From Bacillota bacterium (lineage in GTDB: Bacteria; Macinerneyibacteriota; Macinerneyibacteria; Macinerneyibacteriales; DSCS01), in contig DSCS01000029.1 in NCBI GenBank assembly GCA_011048995.1, positions 5,942 through 69,941 of the forward strand: 64,000 bases of DNA, written 5' to 3'. A model generated the notes under the pieces. The model ran no database searches. It saw only the letters and a program-made list of their open reading frames with translations, and was not told the origin of the DNA. Of the stretch, positions 11,352 to 30,166 are shown in pieces (the stretch's first letter is position 1; every line of letters starts with the position of its first letter). Made by a program: the position numbers and the translations under genes.

Positions 11352-11686
11352 ATTTTTTTTAAAAAAAAGAGCATGATAAAATATCCGCCTACGGTGAGAG
11401 AGGCCGATAAGAGAAGGCTTATGAGAAAGGGGATCCTGGCTTTCAGGAAAAAAGGCAGAGTCAAAAAAAAGAGTAGCGAAGGAAGCACAAGCCAAAATAT
11501 TTGAGAAGAGAGGGACTCGATGGCGTGTGTCTTTTTTGTCTCAATATAGATCCATATGATAGCTAAAAGGGATGTGAGGGGCAGAGAGGCCAGTAAAGCA
11601 CCGATAAAAGTGTTTCGTTTCGAAATCTCGGAAATGAGGACAATGATCAGGGTCGTCAAAACTATTTTTACTGCATAGAAAAGCAT
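11345..11686 (-). CDS. Small integral membrane protein (113 aa, 3-4 TM helices). Unknown family.
   Basis: Hydrophobic throughout. Its 3' end overlaps the M23 gene 3' end by 7 nt on the opposite strand. Confidence 0.45.
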   Translation of the reverse strand: MLFYAVKIVLTTLIIVLISEISKRNTFIGALLASLPLTSLLAIIWIYIETKKTHAIESLSSQIFWLVLPSLLFFLTLPFFLKARIPFLISLLLSASLTVGGYFIMLFFLKKIQ

Positions 11687-11696
11687 AAAACTCCTT

Positions 11697-12641: not shown

Positions 12642-12737
12642 AATGGACAGAAGTATAAACGAATGTATGACTTCCGCAAGCTTTTTCCCGGCAAAGGATA
12701 TCTTGAAATCTATTTGAAGTCCTGTATGATGTAATGC

Positions 12738-14651
12738 ATGAAAGAAAAGAAGGAACAGTATTTACAGGAAAGCACGGTGCGTGTATCCACAACGGCAAAG
12801 AAAAAGTTGCTGCATGACGGCTTCTCCGTTGAGGAGCTTCGTCAGCTGAGCTCTGATGAATTGACGGAATTATCACAGGAGATCCGTCAATGCATTATCG
12901 AGAAATGTCTGAAAAACGGCGGGCATCTTTCTCCGTCTTTAGGTGTTGTAGAGCTGACGCTGGCCCTTCATTATACGTTTCAAACACCTCAGGATCAGAT
13001 CATCTGGGATGTCGGACATCAGGCGTATGCCCATAAGATCATCACCGGACGGATCTCAGAGTTTGGGACTCTCAGATGCAGGGGCGGAATTTCCGGATTT
13101 CTTCGGAGGGCAGAATCGCCGTTTGATGTTTACGGAGCCGGTCATGCTTCTACGTCTGTAGCGGCTGCTGCAGGTTTTGCCAAAGCCCGGGATCTCAACA
13201 ATGAAGAGCATAAGGTCATTGCCGTGATCGGAGACGGGGCCATGACAGGCGGGTTAGCCTTCGAAGGCTTAAACCTCATCGGGTCGGAAAAGCTTAATGT
13301 CATGGTGATCTTGAACGACAATGATATGTCTATTGACAAAAATGTCGGGGGGTTGTCCAAATATTTTAACCGGGCGATTTCAGCCCGTTTTTATAACCGT
13401 ATCCGTGAAGATATGCAAAAATTCGTCAAAAGCCTGCCTGCGGGGGCTTCAATCTATGAATGGCTCAGGCGGTTGGAAGAATCCATGAAAAACATGATGA
13501 TCAAGGGAGCTTTTTACGAAGACCTGGGATTCAACTATATCGGGCCTGTCGACGGCCATAATATCAGAGAGCTGATCTCTTTGCTGAAAAAGGCCAAAGA
13601 GATCAAAGGGCCGGTCCTTCTCCATGTGAGGACGAAAAAAGGGAAAGGTTATCTTCCGGCTGAAGAAGATGCGGAGACCTATCATGGCATTTCGGGGCGG
13701 AACAGTAAAAAAAAGAAACAGACCTACACGAATATCGTTAAAAGAGAATTGAAAGACTTGGGAGAAAAAGATCCTGATATTATAGCCATAACAGCAGCCA
13801 TGCCTTCCGGAACGGGGTTATGCGCTTTTAAAGAGTCTTTTCCGGAACGCTATATCGATGTAGGAATAGCCGAAGAAGGGGCGGTGACAATGGCTACAGC
13901 CTTAGCCCTGTCAGGGAAAAAACCCTTTGTAGCCATTTATTCCACATTTCTTCAGAGAGCCTATGATCAATTGATCCATGATACGGCTTTGCAAAAAGCT
14001 CCGGTTCGTTTTCTTTTGGACCGGGCGGGCCTGGTGGGCGAGGATGGGCCCACTCATCACGGAGCTTTTGATATCGCCTATCTGCGGTCCGTACCGGGGA
14101 TGACTCTTTTAGCACCGGCTGACAGGGATGAGCTGAAAGCGATGGTCCGGTTTTGTTATGATTTTAAAAAAGGTCCCATTGCCCTGCGTTATCCCCGCGG
14201 AGAGTCGATTCCACGGCTTGACAAAAAAAAGATTCCTGTGGAATACGGACGAGGTGTCTTGCTTCGGGAAGGAAAAGACATTCTGATCCTGGCCTTAGGG
14301 CGTATGGTCGCCGAAGGGTTGAAAGCTGCTGAAGAGCTGGAGCAGTCGGGACTGTCTGCCGGCGTCTTTAATCTCCGTTTTGCCAAGCCTTTGGACGAAT
14401 CGGCAATATTGGCTCTTTCCAGCCGGTATCGGGCTGTAGTCACGCTGGAATACGGGACAATATCCGGCGGGATCGGAGAGGCTTTGGGGGGACTTTTATT
14501 GTCAAAAGGAAAATATACACAGGGTTTTCTTTCAATCGGTCTTCCCGATGCTTTTGTAGAGCATGGAGCCCAGGATGAGTTGATGACATTATGCGGGTTG
14601 AAAGGAGAAGCTTTGGCAAGGAAGGTCGAGGAATGGTTCCGCAGCGAATAG
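12738..14651 (+). CDS. dxs: 1-deoxy-D-xylulose-5-phosphate synthase.
   Basis: TPP-binding site GDGAMTGGLAFEGLN, GHASTS, and a transketolase-like pyrimidine-binding and C-terminal domain. 637 aa. Confidence 0.9.
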   Translation: MKEKKEQYLQESTVRVSTTAKKKLLHDGFSVEELRQLSSDELTELSQEIRQCIIEKCLKNGGHLSPSLGVVELTLALHYTFQTPQDQIIWDVGHQAYAHKIITGRISEFGTLRCRGGISGFLRRAESPFDVYGAGHASTSVAAAAGFAKARDLNNEEHKVIAVIGDGAMTGGLAFEGLNLIGSEKLNVMVILNDNDMSIDKNVGGLSKYFNRAISARFYNRIREDMQKFVKSLPAGASIYEWLRRLEESMKNMMIKGAFYEDLGFNYIGPVDGHNIRELISLLKKAKEIKGPVLLHVRTKKGKGYLPAEEDAETYHGISGRNSKKKKQTYTNIVKRELKDLGEKDPDIIAITAAMPSGTGLCAFKESFPERYIDVGIAEEGAVTMATALALSGKKPFVAIYSTFLQRAYDQLIHDTALQKAPVRFLLDRAGLVGEDGPTHHGAFDIAYLRSVPGMTLLAPADRDELKAMVRFCYDFKKGPIALRYPRGESIPRLDKKKIPVEYGRGVLLREGKDILILALGRMVAEGLKAAEELEQSGLSAGVFNLRFAKPLDESAILALSSRYRAVVTLEYGTISGGIGEALGGLLLSKGKYTQGFLSIGLPDAFVEHGAQDELMTLCGLKGEALARKVEEWFRSE

Positions 14652-15424
14652 ATGCCTACTTGACACAGAAAGGTTATTTTGAAAGCCGTGTTCGGGCTGC
14701 CAGGGCCGTGCGGAGTGGTTTTGTCCGGGTTAACGGACGTCTTGTCGGGAAACCTTCTTTATGTGTGTCGGGAGCCGATGAGATCCGTGTCTCCGGAGAT
14801 CCGGTCCCGTTTGTCAATAAAGCCGCTTTAAAAATGGATTTGTTTTTAGAAGAAACCGGGATATCCGTCAGCGGGTTCACTGTCTGTGACGCCGGAGCTT
14901 CAACGGGAGGCTTTACACAGATCATGCTGCAGCATGGAGCGTCTCATGTCTGGGCAGTAGACGTGGGTCGAGGGCAGTTTCACTCATCTTTGCGCGACGA
15001 AAGCCGTGTCACCCTGAAAGAACAGTGCGACATACGGGAATTCCTTAGAAAGAGCCCGGCGCATTTTGAACTTATTGTTGCGGATCTCTCCTTTATTTCT
15101 CTCAAACGAGTCGTGCCGGTGATGAGTGGAGCGTCCCGTCGTTTTCTTTTCCTCTTTAAACCCCAATTTGAGACTTCTCCCAACGCTAAAAACAAAAAAG
15201 GAGTCGTCACAGATCTTTCTCTTCATCAAAGTATTCTGGAAAGCTTCAGAGATTATCTGTTGAAAGAGGGATTGTTTCCTCTTATAATCAGAAGGTCTCG
15301 CCTTTTGGGAGGGGAAGGAAACAGGGAGTATTTTATTTTCTGTAAAAAAAAATCCGGAATGGTCATAACCCCAGACGATATTAAAAGGGAAGTGTTTAAA
15401 GATGAAGATTTCCTTGATCTCTAA
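14633..15424 (+). CDS. tlyA: TlyA-family rRNA 2'-O-methyltransferase / haemolysin-like protein (S4 domain plus FtsJ-like methyltransferase).
   Basis: N-terminal S4-like RIDAYLTQKGYFESRVRAARAVRSGFVRVNG. SAM-binding site VCDAGASTGGFTQ. Start chosen at MVPQRID; the tracked ORF starts at 14591. Confidence 0.75.
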   Translation: MVPQRIDAYLTQKGYFESRVRAARAVRSGFVRVNGRLVGKPSLCVSGADEIRVSGDPVPFVNKAALKMDLFLEETGISVSGFTVCDAGASTGGFTQIMLQHGASHVWAVDVGRGQFHSSLRDESRVTLKEQCDIREFLRKSPAHFELIVADLSFISLKRVVPVMSGASRRFLFLFKPQFETSPNAKNKKGVVTDLSLHQSILESFRDYLLKEGLFPLIIRRSRLLGGEGNREYFIFCKKKSGMVITPDDIKREVFKDEDFLDL

Positions 15425-16184
15425 TCCGAAAAGAAAAGAAAAATGGGCCGGAAAAACAGAACCTCTTGTACAGTGGTTTTCTCATCATACTGATGTTGTG
15501 GAAGACCCTGAAAAGGCGGATTGGATCGTTACTTTGGGAGGTGACGGAACATTATTGTATGCGCTGTCGCATTTCGGAACGAAGAAATCTTATTTTGGAA
15601 TCAATCTGGGGCATTTGGGTTTTTTGACTTCAGTGGATTTTTCGCAAACCGATACCGTATTGGAGCGTGTTTTTCTTCAAAACCGCTACAAAGTGGAGCA
15701 TCTCCGTTATTTACGCTATCAAGGTTCTGATTTAAAGGGAAGAGCGGTCAATGATGTCGTTTTGAAAGGGCTTCGTGTTCAGGATATGGTTCGGTATGAT
15801 GTTTTCCTCAATGGAGACTTTGTCTGTTCTCAAACAGGAGATGGTTTGATCGTATCATCGCCTGTAGGCTCGACGGCTTATAACCTTTCCGTGGGAGGCT
15901 CGATCATGCATCCTGAGACAGGCGGTTATATTTTAAATTCCATTGCGACCCATTCCCTGGGGATCCGTCCCTTGATCATGGGAGAAAAACATCTGCTCAA
16001 GATCGTTCCGCATCAGCCCATGTCCCTTATCATTGACGGCCGCCTTGAAGGAAAGACCACAGACCCTGTGGAGGTGTTCCCTGCTGAGGACGCTTTTTCT
16101 GTTATACGGACCGTGGATTGGGATTTCTATCAGGTGCTGCGGATGAAGCTTCACTGGGGAAAAAGGGGGGATGAAAGATGTTAG
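15402..16184 (+). CDS. nadK: NAD kinase.
   Basis: GGDGTLL motif, and NDVVL...DGLIVSSPVGSTAYNLSVGGSIMHP. Confidence 0.85.
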   Translation: MKISLISNPKRKEKWAGKTEPLVQWFSHHTDVVEDPEKADWIVTLGGDGTLLYALSHFGTKKSYFGINLGHLGFLTSVDFSQTDTVLERVFLQNRYKVEHLRYLRYQGSDLKGRAVNDVVLKGLRVQDMVRYDVFLNGDFVCSQTGDGLIVSSPVGSTAYNLSVGGSIMHPETGGYILNSIATHSLGIRPLIMGEKHLLKIVPHQPMSLIIDGRLEGKTTDPVEVFPAEDAFSVIRTVDWDFYQVLRMKLHWGKRGDERC

Positions 16185-17866
16185 AGAGGATTCATATGCA
16201 GAACTTTGCTATTGCTGAAAACCTCTCTATGGAATTCAGTCCCGACTTCAATGTGATTACCGGAGAAACCGGAGCGGGAAAGTCCATTATTCTCAATGCC
16301 ATTGCTATGGCTATGGGGGATCGGGCTGATCAGGAAATGATCCGACTAGGGGCCGACGAAGCTGTGGTCGAGGCGGTTTATACTAAAAGTCCTCTGTTAC
16401 AGTCCTGGCTGGCAGAGCAAGGGTTTCCTGACGAGGATGTCTGTATTGTCAAAAGGATCATCAAAAGAAACGGAAAGAACAGAGTCTTTATTAACGGCTC
16501 TTCTGCGACCCTGAATCAGCTTAAAGAAATCACAGAGCGCTTGCTTGACCTGAATAATCAGAGTGAACATCAGATGCTTATGGATCCGGCCAATCATTTG
16601 CGTTTTTTGGATTATTACGGTATGCCGTGGGAGGCTTTGGATGAATATCAAAAACTTTATAAGGAGCTTTACGTCCTTGTGAACCGCTTTGAGAATTTTA
16701 AAAAAGAGGAGCGGGACATCCGCCGAAAAATCGACACCTATCGTTTTGAGCTGAGTGAGATCGAAGGGGTGTCTCCCAGACCCGGAGAAGACGAATCTCT
16801 CTTAGATGAGGTGAGGTTGCTCGAAAAGTCTCGTTCGATCATGGAACACACGGCTCTCATTCACAGATTATTTAATGAAGATGATGATTTTACCGGTGCT
16901 CTTGATGATGTCCTGGGACGATTGGAAAAGCTCCGGGGTATCAGTGAGCCCATGGACGGTTTTGCAGAAAGGCTGACGGGGCATTTGAACGGTATGAGTG
17001 AGGAAGCCCGCCAGCTCCAGCGTTATGTGGAAGAGATGGAATTGGATGAAGAACGCCTGGACACTGTCAACGAGCGGCTGGCTTCCATTGAAAAATTAAA
17101 AAGAAAATACGGAGACTCGGTTGAAGAGGTGCTCGCCTATGCCGGGCGAATCAAAGGAGAATTGGAATCTTTTGAAGAAATGACTTTTGATGCGGAAAAA
17201 TTCGCTCAAAAGATCGACGCTTTGGGGCGAAAGCTTGTCGAAAAGGATGCAACGCTTTTTGAGAAGCGCCAAAAGGCAGCTGAATCCTTTACGGCCGCCC
17301 TTGAGGAAGAGATGAAGGATATCGCATTGGAAAAGGCCCGTTTTTACGTGGAGTTTCTTCCTGTCGAACAGGGCATGGAAGTCAGTAATCGACAATTTGG
17401 CCCGGAGGGAAGCCGCCGGGCAGAATTCTATATTGAGACGAACCCCGGAGAAGGGCGGCATCCTTTGGTGAAAACGGCTTCCGGCGGAGAATTGTCGCGG
17501 ATTCTTTTTGCCTTAAAATCTGTTATCGGACGGCATTTAGATATCGAGTGTATGATCTTTGATGAGATCGACAGCGGCATCGGCGGGGCCGTGGCCGGAA
17601 TGGTAGGATCTAAATTGGCCCGTCTTTCACAAAAATACCAACTCATTGTCATTACTCATCAGCCTCAGATCGCGGCGTTAGGGAAAAGGCATTTCCATGT
17701 CGAAAAAGTCTATGACGGACGCAGAACAGTGACGCAGGTCAGAGTATTAGAGGGAGAGGGTGTGGTCAAAGAGATCGCCCGAATGATTGCCGGCTCCCCT
17801 GAAGACCCTGAGGCCCTGTCAGTAGCCCGGCGCATGAGCCGGCTGCAGGAATCGGAGAACACATGA
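16178..17866 (+). CDS. recN: DNA repair protein RecN.
   Basis: N-terminus MLERIHMQNFAIAENL. Walker A GETGAGKS, a long coiled-coil middle, and C-terminal signature SGGELSRILFAL with Walker B MIFDEIDSGIGG. Confidence 0.9.
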   Translation: MLERIHMQNFAIAENLSMEFSPDFNVITGETGAGKSIILNAIAMAMGDRADQEMIRLGADEAVVEAVYTKSPLLQSWLAEQGFPDEDVCIVKRIIKRNGKNRVFINGSSATLNQLKEITERLLDLNNQSEHQMLMDPANHLRFLDYYGMPWEALDEYQKLYKELYVLVNRFENFKKEERDIRRKIDTYRFELSEIEGVSPRPGEDESLLDEVRLLEKSRSIMEHTALIHRLFNEDDDFTGALDDVLGRLEKLRGISEPMDGFAERLTGHLNGMSEEARQLQRYVEEMELDEERLDTVNERLASIEKLKRKYGDSVEEVLAYAGRIKGELESFEEMTFDAEKFAQKIDALGRKLVEKDATLFEKRQKAAESFTAALEEEMKDIALEKARFYVEFLPVEQGMEVSNRQFGPEGSRRAEFYIETNPGEGRHPLVKTASGGELSRILFALKSVIGRHLDIECMIFDEIDSGIGGAVAGMVGSKLARLSQKYQLIVITHQPQIAALGKRHFHVEKVYDGRRTVTQVRVLEGEGVVKEIARMIAGSPEDPEALSVARRMSRLQESENT

Positions 17867-20800
17867 AAAATCTTTTATCCCTTTCCCTGATGACTCTTTT
17901 TATCTTTTTGATTTCACCCGGGACTGAATTACTTGAACCTCTGTATTACGGCGTGGATTACTGGCCGTTAGCAGTCGATATGGATTTTGATTGGGATCTT
18001 TGGAAAACATCTACAGAAGAAAGTATGACATATCAAGGATATGAAGTCATGTCGGAAGGGTTAGTCCCCGATATTAAGATTGCAAAAGATTCGACCATCA
18101 AAATAACAGGACGCAAAAACATCAGTTTTGAAGTCAGTAAAAAGACCTATCCCAATGTTACCGAGCTGGCTGACCCGCTTTATCAGAATGCCGGGGGAAT
18201 CGATCCTGAGATCAAGCAACAGCTGCAGGTAAAAGTGGAGGGGATTATTAAAAACAGAATTTTTATTGATGTGGATTATGATGATACTCAACAATATGAG
18301 AACCGGGAACGTATTTCTGTGGTCTATAAAGGGACAGAAGATGAAATCGTCCGGGAAGTCGCCCTGGGGGATATAACATTAAGTCTTCCTCATACGGAAT
18401 TTATATCATTTAACAGGAATCTTTTCGGCGCTAAAGCGACTCTGGTCATGGGGCCGTATTCCTATTACGGCCTGATTACAAAAGAGGAAGGGGTCACACA
18501 AAGCAACAGCTGGTCGGCTGTCAACCCGATGATCCAAAAAACGACTTATGATACAAACTTCTCCACATCTCCGGTCCGTCTTTCTCTTCAGCAGGGGATC
18601 CCTGGGATTTCTTTGCCTCTTGTGGAAGGCGAGGTCTATCTTTATTACGATGACGGAATCTTCAACGAGGAGGACCAGGGGCGTATTCCCTGCGGGGAGT
18701 TTTATTTCGAACCTCTGATCCCTGTAACGGATTATATGGTGGATCATGAAAAAGGGGAGATCATCATCAAAAAGAGCATGGCGACCACAGGCACTGTGGC
18801 TATGATCTATACTGATGCCAATGCCGTGACCCACGGAAATCCCGATCCGGAAACATTTGATTACGGGGCACTCATTTATTCAAAAAGAAGCGAAGTCGAG
18901 TATCAGGAAATCAGACAATTATTCTTAAAAAGAAATATTTATTTTTTGGGGTCCTCGGACCTTGACGCTTCCGGATTGAGCCTGGAGATCCTCGATTTAG
19001 GGGGGAAGTCAGGTGTGACCGTGACAGCTGAGGATTTGAGTCAAAAGACCTACAGCTATATGCATCTATTCGGGATTGACAGAGATAATGACGGTACGGC
19101 GGATCTAACATTTTTAGATTTCGACTCAGGAGCTTTGGATTTTTCTTTTTATCAGGGAGGAGATGTAAGTCTTGAATCTCTTCAGCCTTTTAACACGCTT
19201 CAGTTTCTCTCAGAGAGCGAGCCATCGGGAATCACCGCTGACCTTCCGCTTTATTTATCGGAAATACGCGCGGAGATCGGAGATGTTCCTTTCATTGAGT
19301 TGATGCAAAGCCTGGACAATAGCGGAATCTATGAAGAGGGTTCTACAGCCCTTCGCAAGTATTCTATTTATACGGAATATTACTCATCGACCCCGGTTTT
19401 TAATTTAAATCAGTTTAATATCATCAGTGGAAGTGAGCGGGTCGTCGTCAACGGGGAGATTCTTTTCCGCGGAAGAGATTATCGTATTGACTATCTCACG
19501 GGGACTGTTGAGATCCTTAATGAGAATGTCATGTCGGCCAATGCTTCCGTGCAGATCACCTATGAATACAGGCCGCTGATGATGTCTAAAAGCAAAACAT
19601 TAGTGGGGAACCGAGTAGAATACAACCCAAATGAAAACCTGAGTGTCGGGGCGACTTACATGGATGAGTGGATGCCCGAATCCAATGATGTGGATATTCC
19701 TCATATGGGTGATGAGACGATGCGTCATCGCGTGTATGGAGCCAATGTCAAATACGATCATATCCGGGATGATTATCATATCAACATTTCCGCTGAAGCA
19801 GCCCGCAGCAATGTCGACCCCAATACCTATGGAAGTGTGTTTATTGAAGACATGGAATCAAGCCAACAGGTCAAAAGCTTGCCCATCGCCAAAGGCTCGT
19901 GGTTTATTGCTTCTCCTCCGGATGCCGTCGCTTCCGAAAACCGTTTTGTGCCGACTTTTTCTGTCAGCGACGGGTCGGTCTTTGATTCATACAATTATTT
20001 TGTTAATGAGTACGTCCCTTTGACAGAGATCAACTCCAATTACGGAACAGGGGATAATATGGTCCTGCGTTTTCGGCAAATGCCGGAAGCCGGTGAATTT
20101 TTTTCTTACGGAACGGTTGTTTCACAAAACGGGATGGATCTGACACAATACAGACAGATCGAGATCTGGTATAAAGCAAACAGCGGGGCTTCCGGGACGG
20201 TTTATTTGGATCTGGGTTATATCAGCGAAGACGCTGATGCAGACGGATTTTTGGATACAGAGGATTTGAATGGCAACATGGAGCTGAATGCGGGTGAAGA
20301 TATCGGCTGGGCCTTTGACCTGGCCGGAACCGTTTATCCTATCGGCAAAGATAATAATGTTCTGGATACTGAAGATCTGAATCGGAATGGAGTTCTTAAT
20401 ACCAATGAATCTGTCGTCCGCTATTCTTTTGACCTGGGTGAAGGAGAATCTCATGAGAGCAATGACTGGAGGGTTTTGACCATTCCGCTCAGTGAGGGCA
20501 CGGATTATGAGACTATTCTCAAAGTCGTCAAACACTTGCGTTTATGGGGAGAAGGATTCAGCAGCGGAACGGAATTTTCTTTAGGGCGTCTGGCTATTGT
20601 CGGCACCGTTTGGCAGGAAGACCAGGTCTACCCTGAGGCCGGCTCTCTGGAGATCAGTTCCATCAGTCAGTATGATGACCCCAATTATATTAACCTGCAT
20701 CATAAAGTCGACAAGGATACCGGCCGGGTTTTGAAAGATGTCTCTCTGGTTATGGACTTTGATATGGTTCCGGGCGTTAATGATGAAAGTTATGCCTTTG

Positions 20801-22881
20801 CACGCAAGGACCTTGGCTCCGGCCGCGATTTTTCTCTTTATAATAAACTGAGGGTCTACTTTTTCCCCAAGGAGACAAACGGTGATTATTCCTTCACGGT
20901 CAGACTGAAAACCAGTCAAGAGGACTATTTTGAAAAGAAACGAACTGTTCTGGCTGAAGACCTGGGGCGTTGGCATTATTTGGAATTTGATATTGCACAT
21001 ATTGACCGGACAGATGCAGAAAGCTCAATTGTGGGAGACCCCAATATTAATGTCATCAACTATATCCATATCGGAGTCACCGGGGAAGACGGCCCTTATA
21101 ACGGTGTGCTTTATGTTAATGATATCCGGCTTGTCGATTCCAGTATTCAGGAGGGGACAGCTAAAACAGGATCCGTTCAAGCCAGTTATAAGAATATCGC
21201 CGGGATGTATTATAAGTATATCGATCGGGACGGGCAGTTTGCCGCTATCGGGCAGTCTCCCGGATATATCAATTCTACCAATCATCTTTTCAGAACGAAC
21301 GTCGACTTAGCGTCCTGGCTTTTGAGTTCAAGCGGTGTCAATCTTCCGGTTAACTTTAATTATGGACAGACCCTTAGTGAGACGGATTCGGGAGTCCTTT
21401 CCGAAGTAAGTTACCGGACTTGGGGACGCACAGAAACAAGGACAATGGGTGTCAGTGCAAAATTTTCAAAGAGACAATGGCCGACTCTTTCTTACTCCTT
21501 TGACAGTTATCAACAGGATGTGGGAAATGAGACACGCCCGCTGGACCAACAGCGGCGCAGTCATAATATGGGCCTTTCTTATGTCCCGCCGAAAGCAGAA
21601 CTTTTAACAGTAAATTGGCTACCTTCGTCTGTTAATGTCAGTTTTAAAAGGGAGAAATCCCATTACCTGAATCTGCTTGAAGAAAATCAGAACAGTGATT
21701 ATAAAAGGCTGACGGAGAGATGGAATTTTAATATGAATTGGCTTCCTGTTCAAGGGTGGCGCACCAGTTTTTCCTTATATCAAACTGAACAATGGGATGA
21801 GTTTGAACATCTTTATACTAAAAATGACAGGCAATCGACTTTGGACAACACTTACAGCAGGACTTTTTGGATCCTTGATCTTTACGGAAAATACAGGGCA
21901 CAATTTCAGGAGAATTGGAGCTATGAAAAAGCGATCAATGCGGGAAACTATAATCTTCGAACCTTTAATCTGACCAGCCTCTATGAAACTCGCCTGACTA
22001 TTCATATGATCCGTTATGCCGGATTTTTGCCCTTTTTTCAAAAAAAATTGGATCTGGTGACGTCATATCAATACGATGAACGGGACTATTATGACATGAA
22101 AGAAGGGGAGGCCCGCAATGGAGTCTTCCTCGGATTGGCCGGCAGCCTTGACGTTGAAGGGGCTCCCGATCTGGAGACGGACGGAGAGCGGTTTTCTTTG
22201 GCAGCTAAAACAGAATTTATCACAGGGATCTCCTTCGATCTGGGCTATGAGAAAAACTTATCGGAGAGCTATAACAAGGGAAACGAAAGCAAGGAAGAAT
22301 CCGTGACATGGCCTGATGCCGTTCTCACTGTAAGCCGCTTTCAGCCAATTCCTTTGCTGAAACACTTCGACCGTCTGGTGGTTTCTCATACTCTGAAATT
22401 TCAGTATAAAGAAAAAGAGACGACGACATACGGTTATTATTCTAAAATTGTAAGTGATGAGACTCTTTTCAGCGAGTGGAGGGTGACCTGGAGCGGGGCA
22501 TTGTCTACGCGTTGTTATTTTCGCAAAAATGTTCAGAACCAGGCCACAGCCATGTATGAGAGGGTCAATGAGCGGGTGGAAGGTTATGTGGATTTCAACT
22601 ACCGTATCAGAAATTCAAAACTTTTGAAAGGTTTCCTGCGCAAAAAAGAGAGCACCGTGAATACTCTGCTGACGTTAGGAGGAACCTTCCGTTACATTGA
22701 TCAGTCTTTTACGACCGGAACGGATTATTACTCGTGGGAATCATCTGTCCGGGGACGGTATGATTTTGGTACGGGAATGTCTTTGGGGGCTCTTTTGGGG
22801 TTTAACCTTTACCGCAGTGAAGTTCCGACTAAGGATTATAATGAAATCAAGTTAGGGGGAGATTTTGAAATCCGTTTTTAA
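17863..22881 (+). CDS. sprA: Giant (1672 aa) secreted outer-membrane protein, most likely a SprA/Sov-family type IX secretion translocon homolog.
   Basis: N-terminal signal peptide. Repeated acidic D-T-E-D-L-N motifs (DTEDLNGNMELNAGED, DTEDLNRNGVLNTNE). Beta-rich C-terminal half ending ...GGDFEIRF with a terminal Phe, a beta-barrel signature. Size and context fit an FCB-group bacterium. Not confirmable without a profile search. Confidence 0.5.
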   Translation: MKNLLSLSLMTLFIFLISPGTELLEPLYYGVDYWPLAVDMDFDWDLWKTSTEESMTYQGYEVMSEGLVPDIKIAKDSTIKITGRKNISFEVSKKTYPNVTELADPLYQNAGGIDPEIKQQLQVKVEGIIKNRIFIDVDYDDTQQYENRERISVVYKGTEDEIVREVALGDITLSLPHTEFISFNRNLFGAKATLVMGPYSYYGLITKEEGVTQSNSWSAVNPMIQKTTYDTNFSTSPVRLSLQQGIPGISLPLVEGEVYLYYDDGIFNEEDQGRIPCGEFYFEPLIPVTDYMVDHEKGEIIIKKSMATTGTVAMIYTDANAVTHGNPDPETFDYGALIYSKRSEVEYQEIRQLFLKRNIYFLGSSDLDASGLSLEILDLGGKSGVTVTAEDLSQKTYSYMHLFGIDRDNDGTADLTFLDFDSGALDFSFYQGGDVSLESLQPFNTLQFLSESEPSGITADLPLYLSEIRAEIGDVPFIELMQSLDNSGIYEEGSTALRKYSIYTEYYSSTPVFNLNQFNIISGSERVVVNGEILFRGRDYRIDYLTGTVEILNENVMSANASVQITYEYRPLMMSKSKTLVGNRVEYNPNENLSVGATYMDEWMPESNDVDIPHMGDETMRHRVYGANVKYDHIRDDYHINISAEAARSNVDPNTYGSVFIEDMESSQQVKSLPIAKGSWFIASPPDAVASENRFVPTFSVSDGSVFDSYNYFVNEYVPLTEINSNYGTGDNMVLRFRQMPEAGEFFSYGTVVSQNGMDLTQYRQIEIWYKANSGASGTVYLDLGYISEDADADGFLDTEDLNGNMELNAGEDIGWAFDLAGTVYPIGKDNNVLDTEDLNRNGVLNTNESVVRYSFDLGEGESHESNDWRVLTIPLSEGTDYETILKVVKHLRLWGEGFSSGTEFSLGRLAIVGTVWQEDQVYPEAGSLEISSISQYDDPNYINLHHKVDKDTGRVLKDVSLVMDFDMVPGVNDESYAFARKDLGSGRDFSLYNKLRVYFFPKETNGDYSFTVRLKTSQEDYFEKKRTVLAEDLGRWHYLEFDIAHIDRTDAESSIVGDPNINVINYIHIGVTGEDGPYNGVLYVNDIRLVDSSIQEGTAKTGSVQASYKNIAGMYYKYIDRDGQFAAIGQSPGYINSTNHLFRTNVDLASWLLSSSGVNLPVNFNYGQTLSETDSGVLSEVSYRTWGRTETRTMGVSAKFSKRQWPTLSYSFDSYQQDVGNETRPLDQQRRSHNMGLSYVPPKAELLTVNWLPSSVNVSFKREKSHYLNLLEENQNSDYKRLTERWNFNMNWLPVQGWRTSFSLYQTEQWDEFEHLYTKNDRQSTLDNTYSRTFWILDLYGKYRAQFQENWSYEKAINAGNYNLRTFNLTSLYETRLTIHMIRYAGFLPFFQKKLDLVTSYQYDERDYYDMKEGEARNGVFLGLAGSLDVEGAPDLETDGERFSLAAKTEFITGISFDLGYEKNLSESYNKGNESKEESVTWPDAVLTVSRFQPIPLLKHFDRLVVSHTLKFQYKEKETTTYGYYSKIVSDETLFSEWRVTWSGALSTRCYFRKNVQNQATAMYERVNERVEGYVDFNYRIRNSKLLKGFLRKKESTVNTLLTLGGTFRYIDQSFTTGTDYYSWESSVRGRYDFGTGMSLGALLGFNLYRSEVPTKDYNEIKLGGDFEIRF

Positions 22882-24964
22882 AACCGTTATTCTTTTCTCT
22901 CTTCTGACTTCTGTTTTTCCGGTTTCAGGACTGGAATTGAAACTGTTTGTCCCTATGCCGCATACTGAGTTGACCTATGAGATCGCCCCCTTAGCCGAAG
23001 ATGAAGAGGCGCACCCTTACCCGGCGGCCTATTTAGGGTATGAGCGTCAGGTGGTCAGCGGGAACTTTAATGGGAGCGGCGATTTCAGCGGGGTTTTGAC
23101 TTTCGGATATACCTGTGATGTTCTCTCTTTTCTTTTTCGTGTCGATGATGACGACATATTGGAAGGGGATACTTTTACTCTGATCCTCTCTCTGGAAGGG
23201 TATGCCGATAAACAGATCAGCTGGAACAGTACCGGACAGATTGAAAAAAAGACAACAGCCGGGATGAACGTCGAATTGAAACAGAAAACACCACGGGGGC
23301 GTATTTACTACATTACACTCCCCTGGGAATCATGGCCTCTTCTTCAGCATAAAGCGTACAAAATGCAATTATGGGTTCAAGATAAGGATCATTGGGGAGA
23401 AAAGACACTTGTCCTTCAGGACAGACCGGCACGGTTGCTCCTGAATCCTTTTGTCTCTTGCGAAAATTTTATTTTGGCTGCCGACCGGTTTTATCTGTGC
23501 CCCGAAGAGACCCTGACTCTTTACGGAGAATGGGCATCTGAAAAAGACTTGCAGCGGACAGTCACCCTTCGGGTCAACGGGCATATCATATCCGAAACGT
23601 TTGCTCTTCATGAAGGCCGGACTCCTTTCGAGTTGGTCCTCGGCCCTGATGACTGGAGAGAAGACAATGTTGTTGAATGGATAACCCCCTCAGGGGGAAA
23701 AAGTTTTCTCTTCGAGGTCTCTCATGCGGGGGGAGATTATATCCCCGTGCGGAGCAAAAGAGACAATGAAAAAAACGAATTTTTACACCGGTTTTCTGCA
23801 CGATTTGAAGGCCCCCTCTTTCGGACGCCCTATGAATTCTTTTTCCTTCCCGGGAGAGATGCGCCTGCCCGCTTGATCGTTACGGATTCCTATGAGAAAG
23901 CTTATGAGATTTTAAAGGCCGGGGAATATGCATGTCCCGGGGACCTTTATGTCTATGTGTTTAGGGATAAGGCTCGTCCGCTGTTTGCTCATGACTTTTA
24001 CTTTTTCTGGGAAGAGAAGTCTATAGGGCTTCTTTTTATTGAAGGGAAAGCAGGGCGGCCCTTCATTGATCTGATCAAGAAAAATCCTCCGGTATTTCGG
24101 CCGGCTGTCCATCTTATCCATTTTGATAACCCGGGAGCCCTTATATATGACCCTGAAATCGACACATTGAGGAGTTACATCGTAACACTTTGGAAAAAGA
24201 GTACAGAGACAGGATTTTCTCTTCCGGATTTTTTCCGTATAAAAACGCTTCCCGACAATGGGACCCTTCAAACGCTTTTCATGTCTTATGAGGAGTCTTG
24301 TGAGCGTTCCGATTCTCTTTTTTTGCGCTCATACTCTTTGGGAAATAACCGGTTGGGCCCCCTGGACGTCTATGAGCTCCTTCACTATAACTTGAATTCT
24401 TTCTCTGTGAGTCTCAAAGCGAATAAGCTTTATGCAGAAAATATCCGTTACTTTACTCTGGTGGTGGACACTGATGTGACAGAGTTGTATCTCAATGGAA
24501 GGGCGTATCATGTTTTTCCGGGCCGGTTGAACCGTTTTGCCTGGGATGATCATAAGGATGTCTGGAGTGTTTTTGTGGGCGAAGGGTTGGCTTTCCCCTC
24601 GGTAAAGGATTTTTTCTCTGCTCCTGTGACAGCATTGGACCAAGAGACGGTTGAAAGGATGAGAAAGGCTATGGGAGCATCTCCTCCTCTGGGCCAGGGG
24701 AATCATCTTCTCTATTGGGGAAGGGAACTGCCGATCGAGGCCGTAAAGGATTTTGACATTACCGTCAAAGACGGACACGTTTTATCCATGAACGGAAACC
24801 CTGTATCCCTTCAGGAGCCGTTTTTAATGGTTTTTCAGAAAAACGGGAAAATGCTTTTATGGATGACGGCTTCTCCTTCGGGGTTTTACTCCTACCCCTC
24901 CAATTACATTGTTCTGGACGATAGTGGCCTGATCCGGAGGTTTGGGGAGGTGCTCCCCCGATGA
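22865..24964 (+). CDS. Exported hypothetical protein (699 aa). Translationally coupled to the upstream SprA-like gene.
   Basis: Signal peptide MKSVFKTVILFSLLTSVFPVSG. 17-nt overlap with the SprA-like 3' end. No recognisable catalytic motifs. Confidence 0.55.
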   Translation: MKSVFKTVILFSLLTSVFPVSGLELKLFVPMPHTELTYEIAPLAEDEEAHPYPAAYLGYERQVVSGNFNGSGDFSGVLTFGYTCDVLSFLFRVDDDDILEGDTFTLILSLEGYADKQISWNSTGQIEKKTTAGMNVELKQKTPRGRIYYITLPWESWPLLQHKAYKMQLWVQDKDHWGEKTLVLQDRPARLLLNPFVSCENFILAADRFYLCPEETLTLYGEWASEKDLQRTVTLRVNGHIISETFALHEGRTPFELVLGPDDWREDNVVEWITPSGGKSFLFEVSHAGGDYIPVRSKRDNEKNEFLHRFSARFEGPLFRTPYEFFFLPGRDAPARLIVTDSYEKAYEILKAGEYACPGDLYVYVFRDKARPLFAHDFYFFWEEKSIGLLFIEGKAGRPFIDLIKKNPPVFRPAVHLIHFDNPGALIYDPEIDTLRSYIVTLWKKSTETGFSLPDFFRIKTLPDNGTLQTLFMSYEESCERSDSLFLRSYSLGNNRLGPLDVYELLHYNLNSFSVSLKANKLYAENIRYFTLVVDTDVTELYLNGRAYHVFPGRLNRFAWDDHKDVWSVFVGEGLAFPSVKDFFSAPVTALDQETVERMRKAMGASPPLGQGNHLLYWGRELPIEAVKDFDITVKDGHVLSMNGNPVSLQEPFLMVFQKNGKMLLWMTASPSGFYSYPSNYIVLDDSGLIRRFGEVLPR

Positions 24965-25407
24965 AGGCTCTGATACAGCGGGTCAGAAGGGCGGATGTCT
25001 CGGTCGGGAAGAACTGTGTCGGTAAAATCGACAACGGACTTCTCATCCTCCTGGGAGTAGCTCCCGACGATACGGAAGGTGATAGTGCGTTTTTAGCACA
25101 AAAGATCGTGAATCTCCGTATCTTTGATGATGAAAAGGGGAAGATGAACCTCTCTTTAAAACAGAGTGACGGAAGTGTTTTGGTTGTTTCCCAATTTACT
25201 CTTTTTGCGGATACTTCAAAAGGCAACAGGCCTTCTTTTACGGGAGCCGCTTTGCCTGAAAAAGCTGAATCCCTGTATAATCTGTTCCTTCAAAAAATAA
25301 AAGAACAAGGGATTGTGGTAGAATCAGGGTGTTTCGGAGCCCATATGGAAATTGCCCTTGTGAATGACGGCCCTGTGACACTCATGCTTGAGAGCGTAAA
25401 ACGATGA
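24961..25407 (+). CDS. dtd: D-aminoacyl-tRNA deacylase.
   Basis: MKALIQRVRRADVSV...SGPVTL and the SQFTL motif. 148 aa. Confidence 0.85.
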   Translation: MKALIQRVRRADVSVGKNCVGKIDNGLLILLGVAPDDTEGDSAFLAQKIVNLRIFDDEKGKMNLSLKQSDGSVLVVSQFTLFADTSKGNRPSFTGAALPEKAESLYNLFLQKIKEQGIVVESGCFGAHMEIALVNDGPVTLMLESVKR

Positions 25408-25988
25408 CCCTTCATTTCATTTTAGGTTCGGCTTCTCCGCGGAGAAAAGAGCTTTTTGAGCGTATGGGACTCTCTTTCTCTGTTTATCCGGTCAATATTG
25501 ATGAAAGTGTTTCTTTTAACCGTAAGCGTCCGGCTGATGTTGTGAAGGAGCTGGCCCGCAAGAAAATGGATGCTCTGAAAAACGAAAATGAATATGATCA
25601 GGATATTTTAGTCACCGCTGATACTCTTGTCTTTTTGAAGGGGCAGGTCTTAGGCAAACCGTCGAACCGGCGCGAAGCGTATGAGATGTTGCGATCTCTT
25701 TCGGGGAAGACGCACTCTGTTTACACCGGAGTATGTATTTGTCCGGGAGCCGGGCAGGTCGCTTTTTATGAAAGGACACAGGTGGACTTTATGCCTCTTT
25801 CCGGAGAAGTCATTGAGCGGTATTTAGATTTCAACGAATATAAAGGGAAAGCCGGGGCTTATGCGATTCAGGGCCGGGGAGCTTTTTTTATTTCTTCGAT
25901 CTCAGGAGACTACTACAATGTTGTGGGCTTCCCCGTTAACGCTTTCATTCGAACCCTTTCCCGGGAATGGGGGATCTCTCTTTTATGA
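25404..25988 (+). CDS. maf: Maf-family nucleoside triphosphate pyrophosphatase.
   Basis: LGSASPRRKELF N-terminus, TADTLV and YAIQG motifs. Confidence 0.85.
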   Translation: MTLHFILGSASPRRKELFERMGLSFSVYPVNIDESVSFNRKRPADVVKELARKKMDALKNENEYDQDILVTADTLVFLKGQVLGKPSNRREAYEMLRSLSGKTHSVYTGVCICPGAGQVAFYERTQVDFMPLSGEVIERYLDFNEYKGKAGAYAIQGRGAFFISSISGDYYNVVGFPVNAFIRTLSREWGISLL

Positions 25989-27286
25989 AAGAGGAGCGTC
26001 TTTTACTGATCCGTCTTTTTTTGAAGTGGGAGAAGTCTCGTTTTCTCAGCCGTCTGATAGAAGGCGAAAACCTTTCTCCCTTTATTCTTTTCCATCTTCG
26101 GGGAGTCATTGAGAACCTTCTTTATATAGACTATGCCTTGAAACAGTATTTGAAAAAAAAGCCGGGGAAAGAAACACAGTGGATTCTTCGTCTGGCCTTT
26201 CACGAGCTCCTCTTCGGAGAGAAATCTCCTGATTATGCCGTTACACATGAAGCCGTCCGTCTGGCTTCACGCCTTGATCCCGGGAAAAAGGGACTCGTCA
26301 ACGCAGTAGTAAGGAATTTTATACGGGACGGGAAAGAAGTCACTCTCCCCGTTGATGAAATGCAAGCGTTATCACTCCGGATGTCACTACCCCTTTGGCT
26401 GACAGAGCTTTTAGAGAAGCAATACGGCCGCCCTTCTTTGGAAAAGGCCCTGCTCTCTTTAAGGAATCGCCGGGATTATGATATCCATATCAATGTTGAG
26501 AAGACTGATCCATTATCTTACAAGGCTCTTTTGGACAAGAGCCGTATTTCTTACGATGAATGGAATGTCGGAAAGGCTGCGGCTTTTCGTGTTCACAGTA
26601 GCATCAGGGCTGATGAGCTGCCGGGATATGAAGAGGGGCTCTTTTTTGTTCAGGACCTGGGTGCCCAGATCGCGGCTTCATTGGCTTTGCCGGTTAAAGG
26701 CCCTTTTTTGGATGTGGGCAGCGCCCCCGGGGGTAAACTGATGTTTTTGGCTCCCGATTTTCAAGGAGAAACCGTTGAAGCTTTGGATATTTCTTCCCGG
26801 CGCCTGGACCGCCTGACACATAATTTTGAGCGTATGGGTTATCCCCTCCCCGGCCTTATTGTGGAGGATTTTTTGAAATATGACCCGCCCGGTGCTTTTG
26901 AAAAGATCTTTTTGGATGTGCCTTGTTCAGGTTTAGGTGTCCTGTCAAAAAAATGCGATATTGCCTATCGCCTGACCCCGGAGAATCTGATGTCATTAAA
27001 AGAGATACAGCAGTCTTTTTTGGAGAAAGCCTTTTCTCTGCTTAAACCGGGGGGCGAATTGATCTATAGTACCTGTACTTTGAATAGGGATGAAAATGAG
27101 GGACAGATAACGGAATTTTTAAGCCGCCATAATTCGGAGGCCTCCCTTGAAGATCTTCAGCTGAGAAAACAATTGAACCATTTGCCCTTTCATGGTATAG
27201 TTTTCAGGCAGGGGTTTTATCAGGCTCTGCCCCCTGATTTCCCGGGTGACGGGATGTTCGGGGCTGTAGTCCGGAGGAGGGGCTGA
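25985..27286 (+). CDS. rsmB: RsmB/Sun-family 16S rRNA m5C methyltransferase (NusB-like N-terminus plus SAM-dependent methyltransferase).
   Basis: FLDVGSAPGGK SAM motif and DVPCSGLGVL catalytic Cys motif. ATGA overlap with the maf stop. Confidence 0.75.
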   Translation: MKEERLLLIRLFLKWEKSRFLSRLIEGENLSPFILFHLRGVIENLLYIDYALKQYLKKKPGKETQWILRLAFHELLFGEKSPDYAVTHEAVRLASRLDPGKKGLVNAVVRNFIRDGKEVTLPVDEMQALSLRMSLPLWLTELLEKQYGRPSLEKALLSLRNRRDYDIHINVEKTDPLSYKALLDKSRISYDEWNVGKAAAFRVHSSIRADELPGYEEGLFFVQDLGAQIAASLALPVKGPFLDVGSAPGGKLMFLAPDFQGETVEALDISSRRLDRLTHNFERMGYPLPGLIVEDFLKYDPPGAFEKIFLDVPCSGLGVLSKKCDIAYRLTPENLMSLKEIQQSFLEKAFSLLKPGGELIYSTCTLNRDENEGQITEFLSRHNSEASLEDLQLRKQLNHLPFHGIVFRQGFYQALPPDFPGDGMFGAVVRRRG

Positions 27287-27931
27287 ATGATGAATAAAAT
27301 ATCCGCCTCCATTTTGAATGCGGATTTTTCCCGTTTGAAAGATGATATCGACTCTGTTCTTCCTTTTATTGATGAAATTCACTGTGATGTCATGGATGGG
27401 CATTTTGTGGACAATATTTCTTTTGGAGCTCCTGTCATAGAACGGATTCGGAGCGCTTTCCCGGAAACGGTTATCGATACCCATCTGATGATTCGAGATC
27501 CCGAAAAATTTAGAACGGATTTTATTGCAGCCGGAAGTGATATTCTTGTTTTTCATTTAGAGGCGACACCCCACGCCTATATTACTCTGAAGCGGATCAA
27601 AGACGCTGGTATTCAAGCCGGGATCTCCCTGACCCCGGCCACGGATATCTCATTGTTGGAGCCTCTGGCATCCCTTTTGGACAGAATATTGATCATGACT
27701 GTTGAACCCGGGTTCGGGGGGCAGTCTTTTATTCCTGAAATGCTGAAAAAAATAAAAAAAGCCCGGACCCTTTTTAAGGATATTGATATTCAAGTCGACG
27801 GCGGGATCAACGAAAAGACATTGCCTTATGCCCTGGAGGCCGGGGCTAATGTCTTTGTCGTGGGCTCTTATCTTTTTAGTCATGAAAATAAAAGCGAAAG
27901 AGCTGCACAGTTGTGCTCTTTATTAGATTAA
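27287..27931 (+). CDS. rpe: Ribulose-phosphate 3-epimerase.
   Basis: SILNADFSRL, CDVMDGHFVDN and the VDGG motif. 214 aa. Confidence 0.85.
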   Translation: MMNKISASILNADFSRLKDDIDSVLPFIDEIHCDVMDGHFVDNISFGAPVIERIRSAFPETVIDTHLMIRDPEKFRTDFIAAGSDILVFHLEATPHAYITLKRIKDAGIQAGISLTPATDISLLEPLASLLDRILIMTVEPGFGGQSFIPEMLKKIKKARTLFKDIDIQVDGGINEKTLPYALEAGANVFVVGSYLFSHENKSERAAQLCSLLD

Positions 27932-27948
27932 CCATTAAAGGAGGGGTT

Positions 27949-29185: not shown

Positions 29186-29214
29186 TTGACATTGCCTGTT
29201 TTTTTCCGTAAAAT
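29186..29214 (+). promoter_or_regulatory. Near-consensus sigma70 promoter.
   Basis: TTGACA at 29186-29191, a 17-nt spacer, then TAAAAT at 29209-29214. It sits directly after the aminotransferase stop and before the lipoprotein gene. Confidence 0.55.
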
Positions 29215-30126: not shown

Positions 30127-30137
30127 TCTTGAAAAGC

Positions 30138-30166
30138 AGGGGGAGTGTCTGCTCCCCCTTTTTTAT
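30138..30166 (+). terminator. Rho-independent terminator-like hairpin after the lipoprotein gene.
   Basis: Stem GGGGGAG, loop TGTCTG, stem CTCCCCC, followed by TTTTTTATT. Confidence 0.55.

What the first reader, a model, noticed from the sequence alone, without database searches (positions are those of the whole stretch)
17863..22881. SprA/Sov-like giant outer-membrane protein embedded in a housekeeping super-operon.
A 1672-aa secreted protein is start/stop-overlapped with recN upstream (ATGA) and with a 699-aa exported protein downstream. It has repeated D-T-E-D-L-N acidic motifs and ends in a beta-barrel-type terminal Phe. This matches what I know of the SprA/Sov family, the type IX secretion translocon of Bacteroidota and related FCB phyla. 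No other T9SS genes (porK/L/M/N, gldK-N, porV, CTD substrates) lie in this 64 kb. It sits in one chain of coupled genes tlyA-nadK-recN-X-Y-dtd-maf-rsmB-rpe-aminotransferase. The tlyA-nadK-recN trio is widely conserved, but insertion of a giant OM protein into it is unusual.
Basis: partly seen in the sequence, partly recalled or inferred. Interest (0 to 1): 0.5.

Follow-up and report, generated by a model that had tools for sequence, protein, structure and literature searches.

The report
Compact SprA translocon outside Bacteroidota
[quoted passage not shown] It sits in a candidate phylum (Mcinerneyibacteriota) where this system has not been described, and is translationally coupled to a lineage-specific partner protein of unknown role.

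Summary
ORF X (17863-22881, 1,672 aa) overlaps recN (ATGA) and a 699-aa exported protein Y (17 nt). It carries two DTEDLN motifs and ends in Phe.

The SprA reading is supported:
- TIGR04189 scores 207.7 bits (cutoff 200).
- A family profile hits F. johnsoniae SprA (6H3I) at E 1.6e-83.
- hhalign gives 100% probability end to end.
- An AF2 model of residues 473-1672 (pLDDT 84) matches only SprA chains strongly (Foldseek E 2e-52 to 7e-39; next hit 7e-6). A TamB/AsmA fold is excluded.

X belongs to a compact (~1,630-1,930 aa) clade that Pfam SprA_N mostly misses. It occurs in Mcinerneyibacteriota (this window), Elusimicrobiota, Coatesbacteria, Firestonebacteria, Sumerlaeota and FCPU426, all outside the FCB superphylum.

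In 21 of 81 sister-clade loci, PorV-family barrels and/or proteins with type-A T9SS C-terminal sorting domains lie within 10 kb. The clade therefore most likely acts as a T9SS-type export pore.

No other T9SS gene occurs in the window or in 7 kb beyond it, and the rest of the genome could not be examined.

The housekeeping context is not unusual, since Flavobacterium has ruvA-sprA-gcvH.

Y is an orphan (8 cluster representatives in 1.84 billion proteins) with a CBM9/DOMON-like domain and a non-catalytic alpha/beta domain.

The parts
17863..22881 (+). X: a compact SprA/Sov-family outer-membrane translocon homologue (1,672 aa). It has a Sec signal peptide (about aa 1-22) and a terminal Phe beta-signal.
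   Evidence: TIGR04189 scores 207.7 bits vs cutoff 200. The A1 profile hits PDB 6H3I SprA at E 1.6e-83. hhalign gives probability 100 over X 1-1672 aligned to SprA 1-2403. The AF2 model of aa 473-1672 has pLDDT 84.2. Foldseek gives SprA chains at E 2e-52 to 7e-39.
20230..20400 (+). Acidic, Ca-binding-like repeat region of X containing the two DTEDLN motifs (nt 20254-20271 and 20365-20382). It is a family hallmark shared with canonical SprA.
   Evidence: It is conserved in the compact-clade consensus (ISEDADGxGxLDTEDxNxDG...DTEDLNxNGxLD) and in the canonical SprA consensus (PDxEDLNxDxxLNT). It aligns to SprA 1156-1185.
22865..24964 (+). Y: a lineage-restricted exported protein of 699 aa, translationally coupled to X. 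Its domains are a CBM9/DOMON-like beta-sandwich, an Ig-like domain, an alpha/beta-hydrolase-like fold without a conserved nucleophile, and a beta-rich C-terminal domain.
16178..17866 (+). recN, the upstream gene, whose stop overlaps the X start (ATGA).
   Evidence: Pfam gives SMC_N and AAA_23.
12738..29181 (+). The gap-free 11-gene chain dxs-tlyA-nadK-recN-X-Y-dtd-maf-rsmB-rpe-aminotransferase, a putative single operon.
   Evidence: Pfam annotations are. Junctions run from -61 to 0 nt. The best promoter-like sites flank it at 12703-12730 and 29186-29214. The same order holds in L001-L004, L008 and L009.

Best explanation
X is the outer-membrane protein-export pore of a type-9-like secretion pathway. 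It is a compact orthologue of SprA/Sov.

Proposed mechanism:
1. X is exported by Sec (signal peptide) and inserted by BAM (terminal Phe).
2. It forms a very large single-chain beta-barrel with an extracellular cap that includes the acidic DTEDLN repeats.
3. By analogy with F. johnsoniae SprA, Sec-exported cargo carrying a C-terminal sorting domain enters the barrel from the periplasm.
4. The cargo leaves laterally, bound to a PorV-family shuttle.

The roughly 730 residues missing relative to canonical SprA are seven loop or insert segments of 26-74 aa plus many small trims. No part of the core architecture is lost.

Y is co-translated from the same mRNA and restricted to this phylum. It is most likely a periplasmic or surface accessory of the pore, such as a lid, plug or glycan-binding adaptor. 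It is not an enzyme and not a classical CTD cargo.

Expression from a constitutive housekeeping operon fits a permanently installed envelope machine.

Shown: homology, fold, operon structure, conservation, and PorV and CTD genes beside sister-clade homologues.
Inferred: actual cargo transport in this organism, the existence of PorV, CTD cargo and a motor elsewhere in its genome, and a physical X-Y interaction.
For: Family membership and fold:
- TIGR04189 is matched above cutoff. All 27 clade members match it, with best E 1.1e-151.
- Single-sequence phmmer against 6H3I_A gives E 1.2e-14 with four colinear segments. The profile gives E 1.6e-83.
- hhalign gives probability 100 with 1,523-1,619 aligned columns through to the C-terminus.
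- The Foldseek top four hits are all SprA chains (8gl6_A 2.1e-52, 8gl8_A, 6h3i_A, 6h3j_A). The next hit is 6.8e-6.
- The model shows more than 30 long antiparallel strands.

Functional context in the sister clade:
- A PorV/PorQ-family protein scores above cutoff (NF033709, 130.7 vs 90 bits). Its best PDB hit is PorV of the SprA complex, 6h3i_F.
- A C-terminal domain ends 0-1 aa from the stop on at least 6 unrelated protein families in 18-20 loci.
- It reaches the TIGR04183 type-A sorting-domain cutoff in 4 of 10 tails tested, at 26.6-32.0 vs 23 bits.
- 21 of 81 loci carry a PorV-like and/or CTD gene within 10 kb of the SprA-like gene, and 17 carry both.

X-Y coupling:
- The genes overlap by 17 nt with a Shine-Dalgarno sequence.
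- The pair is conserved down to 31% X identity.
Against: - No PorV-family gene, CTD-bearing protein, GldK/L/M/N, PorU or PorZ was found in the 64-kb window, in 7 kb beyond it, or in any Mcinerneyibacteriota locus.
- No motor or hub gene appeared in any of about 80 homologue neighbourhoods.
- The TIGR04189 score clears the cutoff by only 7.7 bits, and Pfam SprA_N is silent.
- The N-terminal 472 residues were not modelled, so barrel closure, strand number and the lateral opening are unverified.
- Published surveys place the T9SS only in Bacteroidota/FCB (PMC4793230, PMC9127263).
- Y resembles no known T9SS subunit.
Confidence: 0.7

Rival explanations
1. X-Y is a self-contained, motor-independent outer-membrane translocon. 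It would be a reduced or ancestral SprA pore that works with the lineage-specific protein Y (as lid, plug or carrier) in place of PorV, PorU and GldKLMN. It would export a different set of substrates that lack a classical CTD.
For: - No T9SS partner of any kind is present in 71 kb around X or in the other Mcinerneyibacteriota loci.
- Y replaces the PorV and CTD neighbourhood seen in the sister clade, and is strictly coupled and co-conserved with X.
- No GldKLMN-like gene is seen near any compact-clade member.
- X lacks about 30% of canonical SprA.
Against: - T9SS genes are normally scattered in Bacteroidota, so absence from about 3% of a genome means little.
- The sister clade does keep PorV and CTD cargo.
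- The deletions in X are loop trims rather than loss of defined modules.
Confidence: 0.17
2. X is an SprA-derived barrel recruited to outer-membrane biogenesis or lipopolysaccharide handling rather than to protein secretion.
For: - In 51 of the homologue loci the gene lies next to divergently transcribed lptF/lptG. Often lolCDE is a few genes away.
- In the window it sits in a constitutive housekeeping operon.
- Y carries a carbohydrate-binding-module-like domain.
Against: - The fold and sequence match SprA about 40 or more orders of magnitude better than they match LptD or any other barrel.
- PorV-family and CTD-cargo genes share the same neighbourhoods.
- lptFG is not adjacent in the window lineage.
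- Canonical sprA is also flanked by unrelated housekeeping genes.
Confidence: 0.08
3. Y is a dedicated cargo of X, secreted or surface-displayed through the pore, and not a subunit of it.
For: - Y has a signal peptide, no lipobox and no membrane segment.
- It has a multi-domain, adhesin-like or binding-protein-like architecture with CBM9-like and Ig-like modules.
- Cargo genes neighbour the pore gene in the sister clade.
Against: - The Y C-terminus shows no similarity to the CTD profile (hhalign probability of 1.5% or less, vs 98.6% for a control).
- Strict 1:1 translational coupling is more typical of stoichiometric partners.
Confidence: 0.25

Closest known systems
SprA (Fjoh_1653) of Flavobacterium johnsoniae and Sov of Porphyromonas gingivalis, the T9SS outer-membrane translocon (PDB 6H3I, 6H3J, 8GL6, 8GL8; TIGR04189)
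   Same: - Homology is colinear from end to end.
- The giant beta-barrel fold is the same.
- Both have a signal peptide, a terminal aromatic residue, and the acidic D-x-E-D-L-N repeats.
- Both sit directly behind a DNA-repair gene among housekeeping genes: recN here, ruvA in Flavobacterium.
   Different: - X is about 730 residues shorter (1,672 vs about 2,400 aa).
- The missing SprA (P0044) segments are 34-61, 334-409, 1058-1087, 1459-1491, 1926-1971, 2088-2115 and 2117-2175, plus many small loop trims.
- Pfam SprA_N does not hit.
- Identity is about 16-19%.
- The host phylum is outside FCB.
- X has a lineage-specific coupled partner, Y.
- PorV, PPI, Plug, SprE and GldKLMN partners are not seen.
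Compact SprA-like proteins of Elusimicrobiota, Coatesbacteria, Firestonebacteria, Sumerlaeota and FCPU426 (for example P0008, P0014, P0021; annotated 'hypothetical protein')
   Same: - Sizes are similar (1,628-1,926 aa).
- They have 21-25% identity to X over the full length.
- They form the sister group in a rough NJ tree.
- All match TIGR04189.
   Different: - The gene context is lptG-lptF | sprA-like - comF-like. PorV-family barrels, M6 proteases and other type-A CTD proteins lie upstream.
- There is no Y homologue and no recN linkage.
Other large or partnered outer-membrane barrels: LptD-LptE, SusC-SusD, TonB-dependent transporters, Deinococcus SlpA
   Same: They pair a large barrel with a co-encoded soluble partner. 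They give weak Foldseek matches (E 1e-5 to 1e-3, TMq 0.14-0.24).
   Different: Their scores are about 40 or more orders of magnitude weaker than SprA's. There is no sequence homology, and they have far fewer strands.

Membership tests
SprA/Sov translocon family (TIGR04189) | Score at or above the curated cutoff of the family HMM | tested here: met
   207.7 bits vs cutoff 200, E 2e-61, in 5 colinear stretches. The margin is small. All 27 clade members match at E<=1e-5.
SprA/Sov translocon family (TIGR04189) | Pfam SprA_N (PF14349) N-terminal domain | tested here: not met
   X has no Pfam hit at E<=1. Of the 27 aligned clade members, only P0015 carries PF14349.
SprA/Sov translocon family (TIGR04189) | Full-length colinear homology to experimentally characterised SprA | tested here: met
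   The profile hits 6H3I_A at E 1.6e-83. hhalign gives probability 100 over X 1-1672 aligned to SprA 1-2403, with 1,619 aligned columns.
SprA/Sov translocon family (TIGR04189) | Giant single-chain beta-barrel fold (36 strands in 6H3I) with cap and lateral opening | tested here: inconclusive
   The model of aa 473-1672 (pLDDT 84.2) has more than 30 long strands. It matches SprA chains at E 2e-52 with TMq 0.44. The N-terminal 472 aa were not modelled because of the 1,200-aa limit, so strand count, closure and lateral gate are unverified.
SprA/Sov translocon family (TIGR04189) | Sec signal peptide and C-terminal aromatic beta-signal | tested here: met
   The N-terminus is MKNLLSLSLMTLFIFLISPG and the terminus is ...FEIRF. 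F1672 is invariant.
Complete type 9 secretion system | PorV/PorQ-family carrier barrel encoded in the genome | not testable with these tools
   It is absent from the window, the 7-kb extension and all Mcinerneyibacteriota loci. It is present next to sister-clade homologues (NF033709, 130.7 bits vs 90). The rest of this genome could not be reached.
Complete type 9 secretion system | Cargo proteins with a type-A (TIGR04183) or type-B (TIGR04131) C-terminal sorting domain | not testable with these tools
   There are none in the window, and Y has no CTD. They are present beside sister-clade homologues, where 4 of 10 tails score above the TIGR04183 cutoff.
Complete type 9 secretion system | GldK/L/M/N (PorK/L/M/N) motor and ring, PorU sortase, PorZ | not testable with these tools
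   They were not found in the window or in about 80 homologue neighbourhoods. These genes usually lie elsewhere in T9SS genomes, so a whole-genome search is required.
Complete type 9 secretion system | Host belongs to Bacteroidota or the FCB superphylum | tested here: not met
   The closest GTDB genome is a Candidatus Mcinerneyibacteriota MAG at 65% identity. A Y homologue is labelled Mcinerneyibacteriales. NCBI lineage places the phylum among candidate phyla incertae sedis, not in FCB.
   There are no such Pfam or NCBIfam hits. No TamB or AsmA structure appears among the Foldseek matches.

The most novel reading that the evidence does not exclude
In Mcinerneyibacteriota, the compact SprA barrel and its orphan partner Y form a minimal two-protein outer-membrane export device. 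It would work without PorV, PorU or the GldKLMN proton-driven motor. This would be either the ancestral core from which the elaborate Bacteroidota T9SS was built, or a radical reduction of it.
Probability: 0.15. Interest if true: 0.75.

Novelty: new variant of a known kind. Interest (0 to 1): 0.5.

Why it matters
The papers I could search describe the T9SS as confined to Bacteroidota or the FCB superphylum (PMC4793230, PMC9127263, PMC10994853).

This work shows a coherent, roughly 30% smaller SprA subfamily in at least six non-FCB candidate and minor phyla. In several of them it sits beside PorV-family barrels and type-A CTD cargo.

Three consequences follow:
- It widens the likely phylogenetic range of type-9-like secretion.
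- It provides a natural minimal SprA, showing which inserts of the 2,400-residue pore are dispensable. That is useful for structural and mechanistic work.
- It flags an orphan, tightly coupled partner (Y) that could be a new kind of translocon accessory.

For annotation, most clade members are currently labelled 'hypothetical protein'.

Tried and rejected
- Pfam on X and Y gave nothing.
- Rfam and tRNA scans of the window gave nothing.
- A TamB/AsmA fold was rejected by the fold search.
- Y as a type-A CTD cargo was rejected: hhalign probability was 1.5% or less, against 98.6% for a control.
- Y as a serine hydrolase was rejected: the alpha/beta-hydrolase-like domain has no conserved Ser/His.
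- I searched for PorV and CTD genes in the window and in Mcinerneyibacteriota loci with custom HMMs over six-frame ORFs. None were found.
- Extending the contig to the right showed efp-pilT-like-TPR-AAA_22-secDF-recJ and no T9SS genes. The left extension failed because the protein is not on record.
- A neighbour census for GldKLMN and PorU found none among the recurrent families.
- The Fidelibacterota SprA context was uninformative, and the look-up of P0044 failed.
- The AFDB50 fold library was unavailable.
- The Mcinerneyibacteriota genome paper is not held. Literature searches for T9SS in Elusimicrobiota or Mcinerneyibacteriota returned nothing relevant.
- Apparent 'tandem X X' in some loci in my ORF census is an artefact. 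Long antisense ORFs in high-GC genomes clustered with over-extended N-termini.

Full report
**Observation**

The window carries an ATG-initiated ORF at 17863..22881 (+) encoding 1,672 aa. Its start overlaps the recN stop as ATGA, with a GGAGA ribosome-binding site 5 nt upstream.

The next ORF, Y (22865..24964, 699 aa), starts at a TTG preceded by GGGGGAG and overlaps X by 17 nt. Y opens with a Sec-type signal peptide without a lipobox.

DTEDLN occurs twice in X, at aa 798-803 and 835-840. X ends in ...FEIRF.

Pfam confirms the neighbours as dxs, tlyA, nadK, recN, dtd, maf, rsmB, rpe and an aminotransferase. All ten junctions from dxs to the aminotransferase are overlaps or abutments. The best promoter-like sites lie just outside the block. 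Composition across X is unremarkable.

**What X is**

- Pfam finds nothing in X. NCBIfam TIGR04189 (T9SS outer-membrane translocon Sov/SprA) scores 207.7 bits against a cutoff of 200.
- Alone, X hits F. johnsoniae SprA (PDB 6H3I chain A) at E 1.2e-14 in four colinear segments. One segment aligns the second DTEDLN motif to SprA 1156-1185.
- A profile of 27 homologues raises this to E 1.6e-83.
- Profile-profile comparison with 20 canonical, PF14349-bearing SprAs gives probability 100. The alignment runs to the C-terminus. A global hhalign pairs X 1-1672 with a Flavobacterium SprA 1-2403.
- The length difference of about 730 aa is spread over seven SprA-only segments of 26-74 aa and many smaller trims. 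X has no insert of its own of 25 aa or more.
- Foldseek against the PDB returns four SprA chains from T9SS translocon structures at E 2.1e-52 to 7e-39. A gap follows to 6.8e-6, and then generic barrels (SusC, TonB-dependent transporters, LptD).
- The N-terminal 472 residues were not modelled. The strand count and lateral opening are inferred from homology only.

**Whose gene it is**

- The database search found full-length relatives at 65%, 46%, 36% and about 30% identity. Beyond them lies a large set of 1,630-1,930-aa proteins at 21-26%, almost none with the Pfam SprA_N domain. Only then come canonical 2,000-2,500-aa SprAs of Fidelibacterota, Cloacimonadota, Gemmatimonadota and Flavobacterium.
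- A scan of GTDB species genomes found 274 genomes with a relative. The best (65%) is a Candidatus Mcinerneyibacteriota MAG.
- The remaining top 78 are mostly Elusimicrobiota. Also present are Coatesbacteria, Firestonebacteria, Sumerlaeota, FCPU426 and a few MAGs labelled Clostridia.
- A Y homologue is labelled Candidatus Mcinerneyibacteriales.
- Neither Mcinerneyibacteriota nor Elusimicrobiota is in the FCB group in NCBI taxonomy.
- A rough neighbour-joining tree places the window lineage as a monophyletic group. It is sister to the Elusimicrobiota-type compact clade, and both are apart from canonical SprAs.
- All 27 compact-clade members match TIGR04189. Those that carry a source name are called 'hypothetical protein'.

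**Context**

- Within Mcinerneyibacteriota the order dxs-tlyA-nadK-recN-X-Y-dtd-maf-rsmB-rpe-aminotransferase is kept even where X is only 31% identical.
- In the sister clade the core arrangement is lptG< lptF< | SprA-like> comF-like>. lptFG is present in 51 loci and comF-like in 46.
- In Coatesbacteria the gene follows glyQ-glyS.
- In a Flavobacterium the canonical gene lies in ruvA-sprA-gcvH.
- A housekeeping setting, even directly behind a DNA-repair gene, is therefore normal for this family.

**Evidence for function**

The window itself holds no other T9SS gene:
- About 50 ORFs were scanned with Pfam or NCBIfam.
- The contig extension to the right shows efp, a pilT-like ATPase, TPR proteins, secDF and recJ.

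The sister-clade neighbourhoods are informative:
- A recurrent 470-aa protein matches the PorV/PorQ family model above cutoff (NF033709, 130.7 vs 90 bits). Two other recurrent barrels match it below cutoff. Its best PDB hit is the PorV chain of the SprA complex.
- A recurrent M6 metalloprotease carries a C-terminal Ig-like domain.
- An HMM of that domain finds it on at least six unrelated protein families in 20 loci. Its confident matches end 0-1 residues from the stop codon. Three consecutive genes in a Firestonebacteria locus carry it.
- Four of ten isolated tails reach the TIGR04183 type-A T9SS sorting-domain cutoff (26.6-32.0 vs 23 bits). Four others score 19-21 bits. They also match the CTD ends of PorU and PorZ.
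- Of 81 non-Mcinerneyibacteriota loci, 21 carry a PorV-like and/or CTD gene within the flanks held, and 17 carry both.

This is the genomic signature of a T9SS-type export route built around the compact SprA.

No GldK/L/M/N, PorU or PorZ gene recurred in these neighbourhoods. These genes are normally elsewhere in T9SS genomes, so that absence is uninformative.

The same PorV and CTD HMMs find nothing in the window or in any Mcinerneyibacteriota locus.

**The partner Y**

- Y has no Pfam, NCBIfam or PDB sequence match.
- An exhaustive HMMER search of 1.84 billion cluster representatives found only eight, all about 700 aa and full length. Y is always adjacent to X.
- Its AF2 model is confident (pLDDT 84.1, pTM 0.71).
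- The alpha/beta domain has no conserved Ser/His. The invariant residues cluster in the CBM9-like domain and the C-terminal domain.
- The C-terminus is unrelated to the CTD profile (hhalign probability of 1.5% or less, vs 98.6% for a control).
- Y is therefore neither an obvious enzyme nor a classical cargo. A stoichiometric accessory of the pore is the most economical reading, but this is an inference.

**Comparison with the literature**

TXSScan found T9SS in 60 of 97 Bacteroidetes genomes and in no other clade (PMC4793230). Later reviews extend it to the FCB superphylum (PMC9127263; PMC10994853). Searches for T9SS with Elusimicrobia, Elusimicrobiota or Mcinerneyibacteriota returned nothing on the subject.

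**Verdict**

X is a real SprA-family translocon homologue, and I have high confidence in the homology and the fold. It belongs to a compact, mostly unannotated subfamily outside the known taxonomic range of the T9SS.

It most likely works as a T9SS-type export pore (confidence about 0.7). Whether its own genome supplies PorV, CTD cargo and a motor is open. The alternative is that X and Y form a reduced stand-alone device. A whole-genome HMM scan would decide this directly.

Noticed in passing
L005-L087 (for example L005:6915-9058 and 10001-15924): Across Elusimicrobiota, Firestonebacteria and FCPU426 the compact SprA-like gene is flanked by divergently transcribed lptG-lptF (51 loci) and followed by a ComF-like DZR_2+Pribosyltran gene (46 loci). 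lolCDE and asnS are often just downstream. This deeply conserved synteny links the pore gene to envelope-biogenesis genes. Whether the link is functional is unknown.
   Followed up: partly
L015:5518-6927 (family also in L019, L038, L064, L081): This PorV/PorQ-family barrel scores above the NF033709 cutoff. It is fused to a C-terminal LpoB/CsgG-like periplasmic lipoprotein-type domain, an architecture I do not know from Bacteroidota PorV.
   Followed up: partly
L030-L033, L039 (GTDB MAGs titled 'uncultured Clostridia bacterium'): MAGs labelled Clostridia encode the SprA-like barrel, lptFG, PorV-like barrels and CTD proteins. These are hallmarks of a diderm, which suggests mislabelled taxonomy or bins.
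   Followed up: no
window 60193-64000 (continues in L090:11105-13933): A PilT-like T2SSE ATPase is followed by a 942-aa protein with TPR repeats and long, very acidic, coiled-coil-like stretches that runs off the window end. Beyond it lie an AAA_22 protein and two unannotated genes before secDF.
   Followed up: partly
window 1524-6166: A DUF6754 membrane protein (403 bits) is followed by three tightly packed ORFs with no family match (2720-3379, 3389-4228, 4225-4908) and then a 458-aa TPR protein. This is an uncharacterised, possibly envelope-related cluster.
   Followed up: no
window 29242-30126: This conserved 294-aa ORF has no family assignment, only a faint pseudopilin-like N-terminus (GspG, 13 bits). 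It has its own strong promoter-like site (29186-29214, 11/12 matches) and sits directly upstream of a bactofilin gene. The pair is conserved in L001 and L004.
   Followed up: no
window 9806-11351 and 30129-30668: There are two bactofilin genes in the window. One is immediately upstream of an M23 peptidase, judging by homology with the L001 annotation.
   Followed up: no
window 14591-14651: The longest tlyA ORF overlaps dxs by 61 nt. The true start is probably a downstream ATG (the MVPQRIDAYL... region), since L001 and L004 call shorter overlaps.
   Followed up: no
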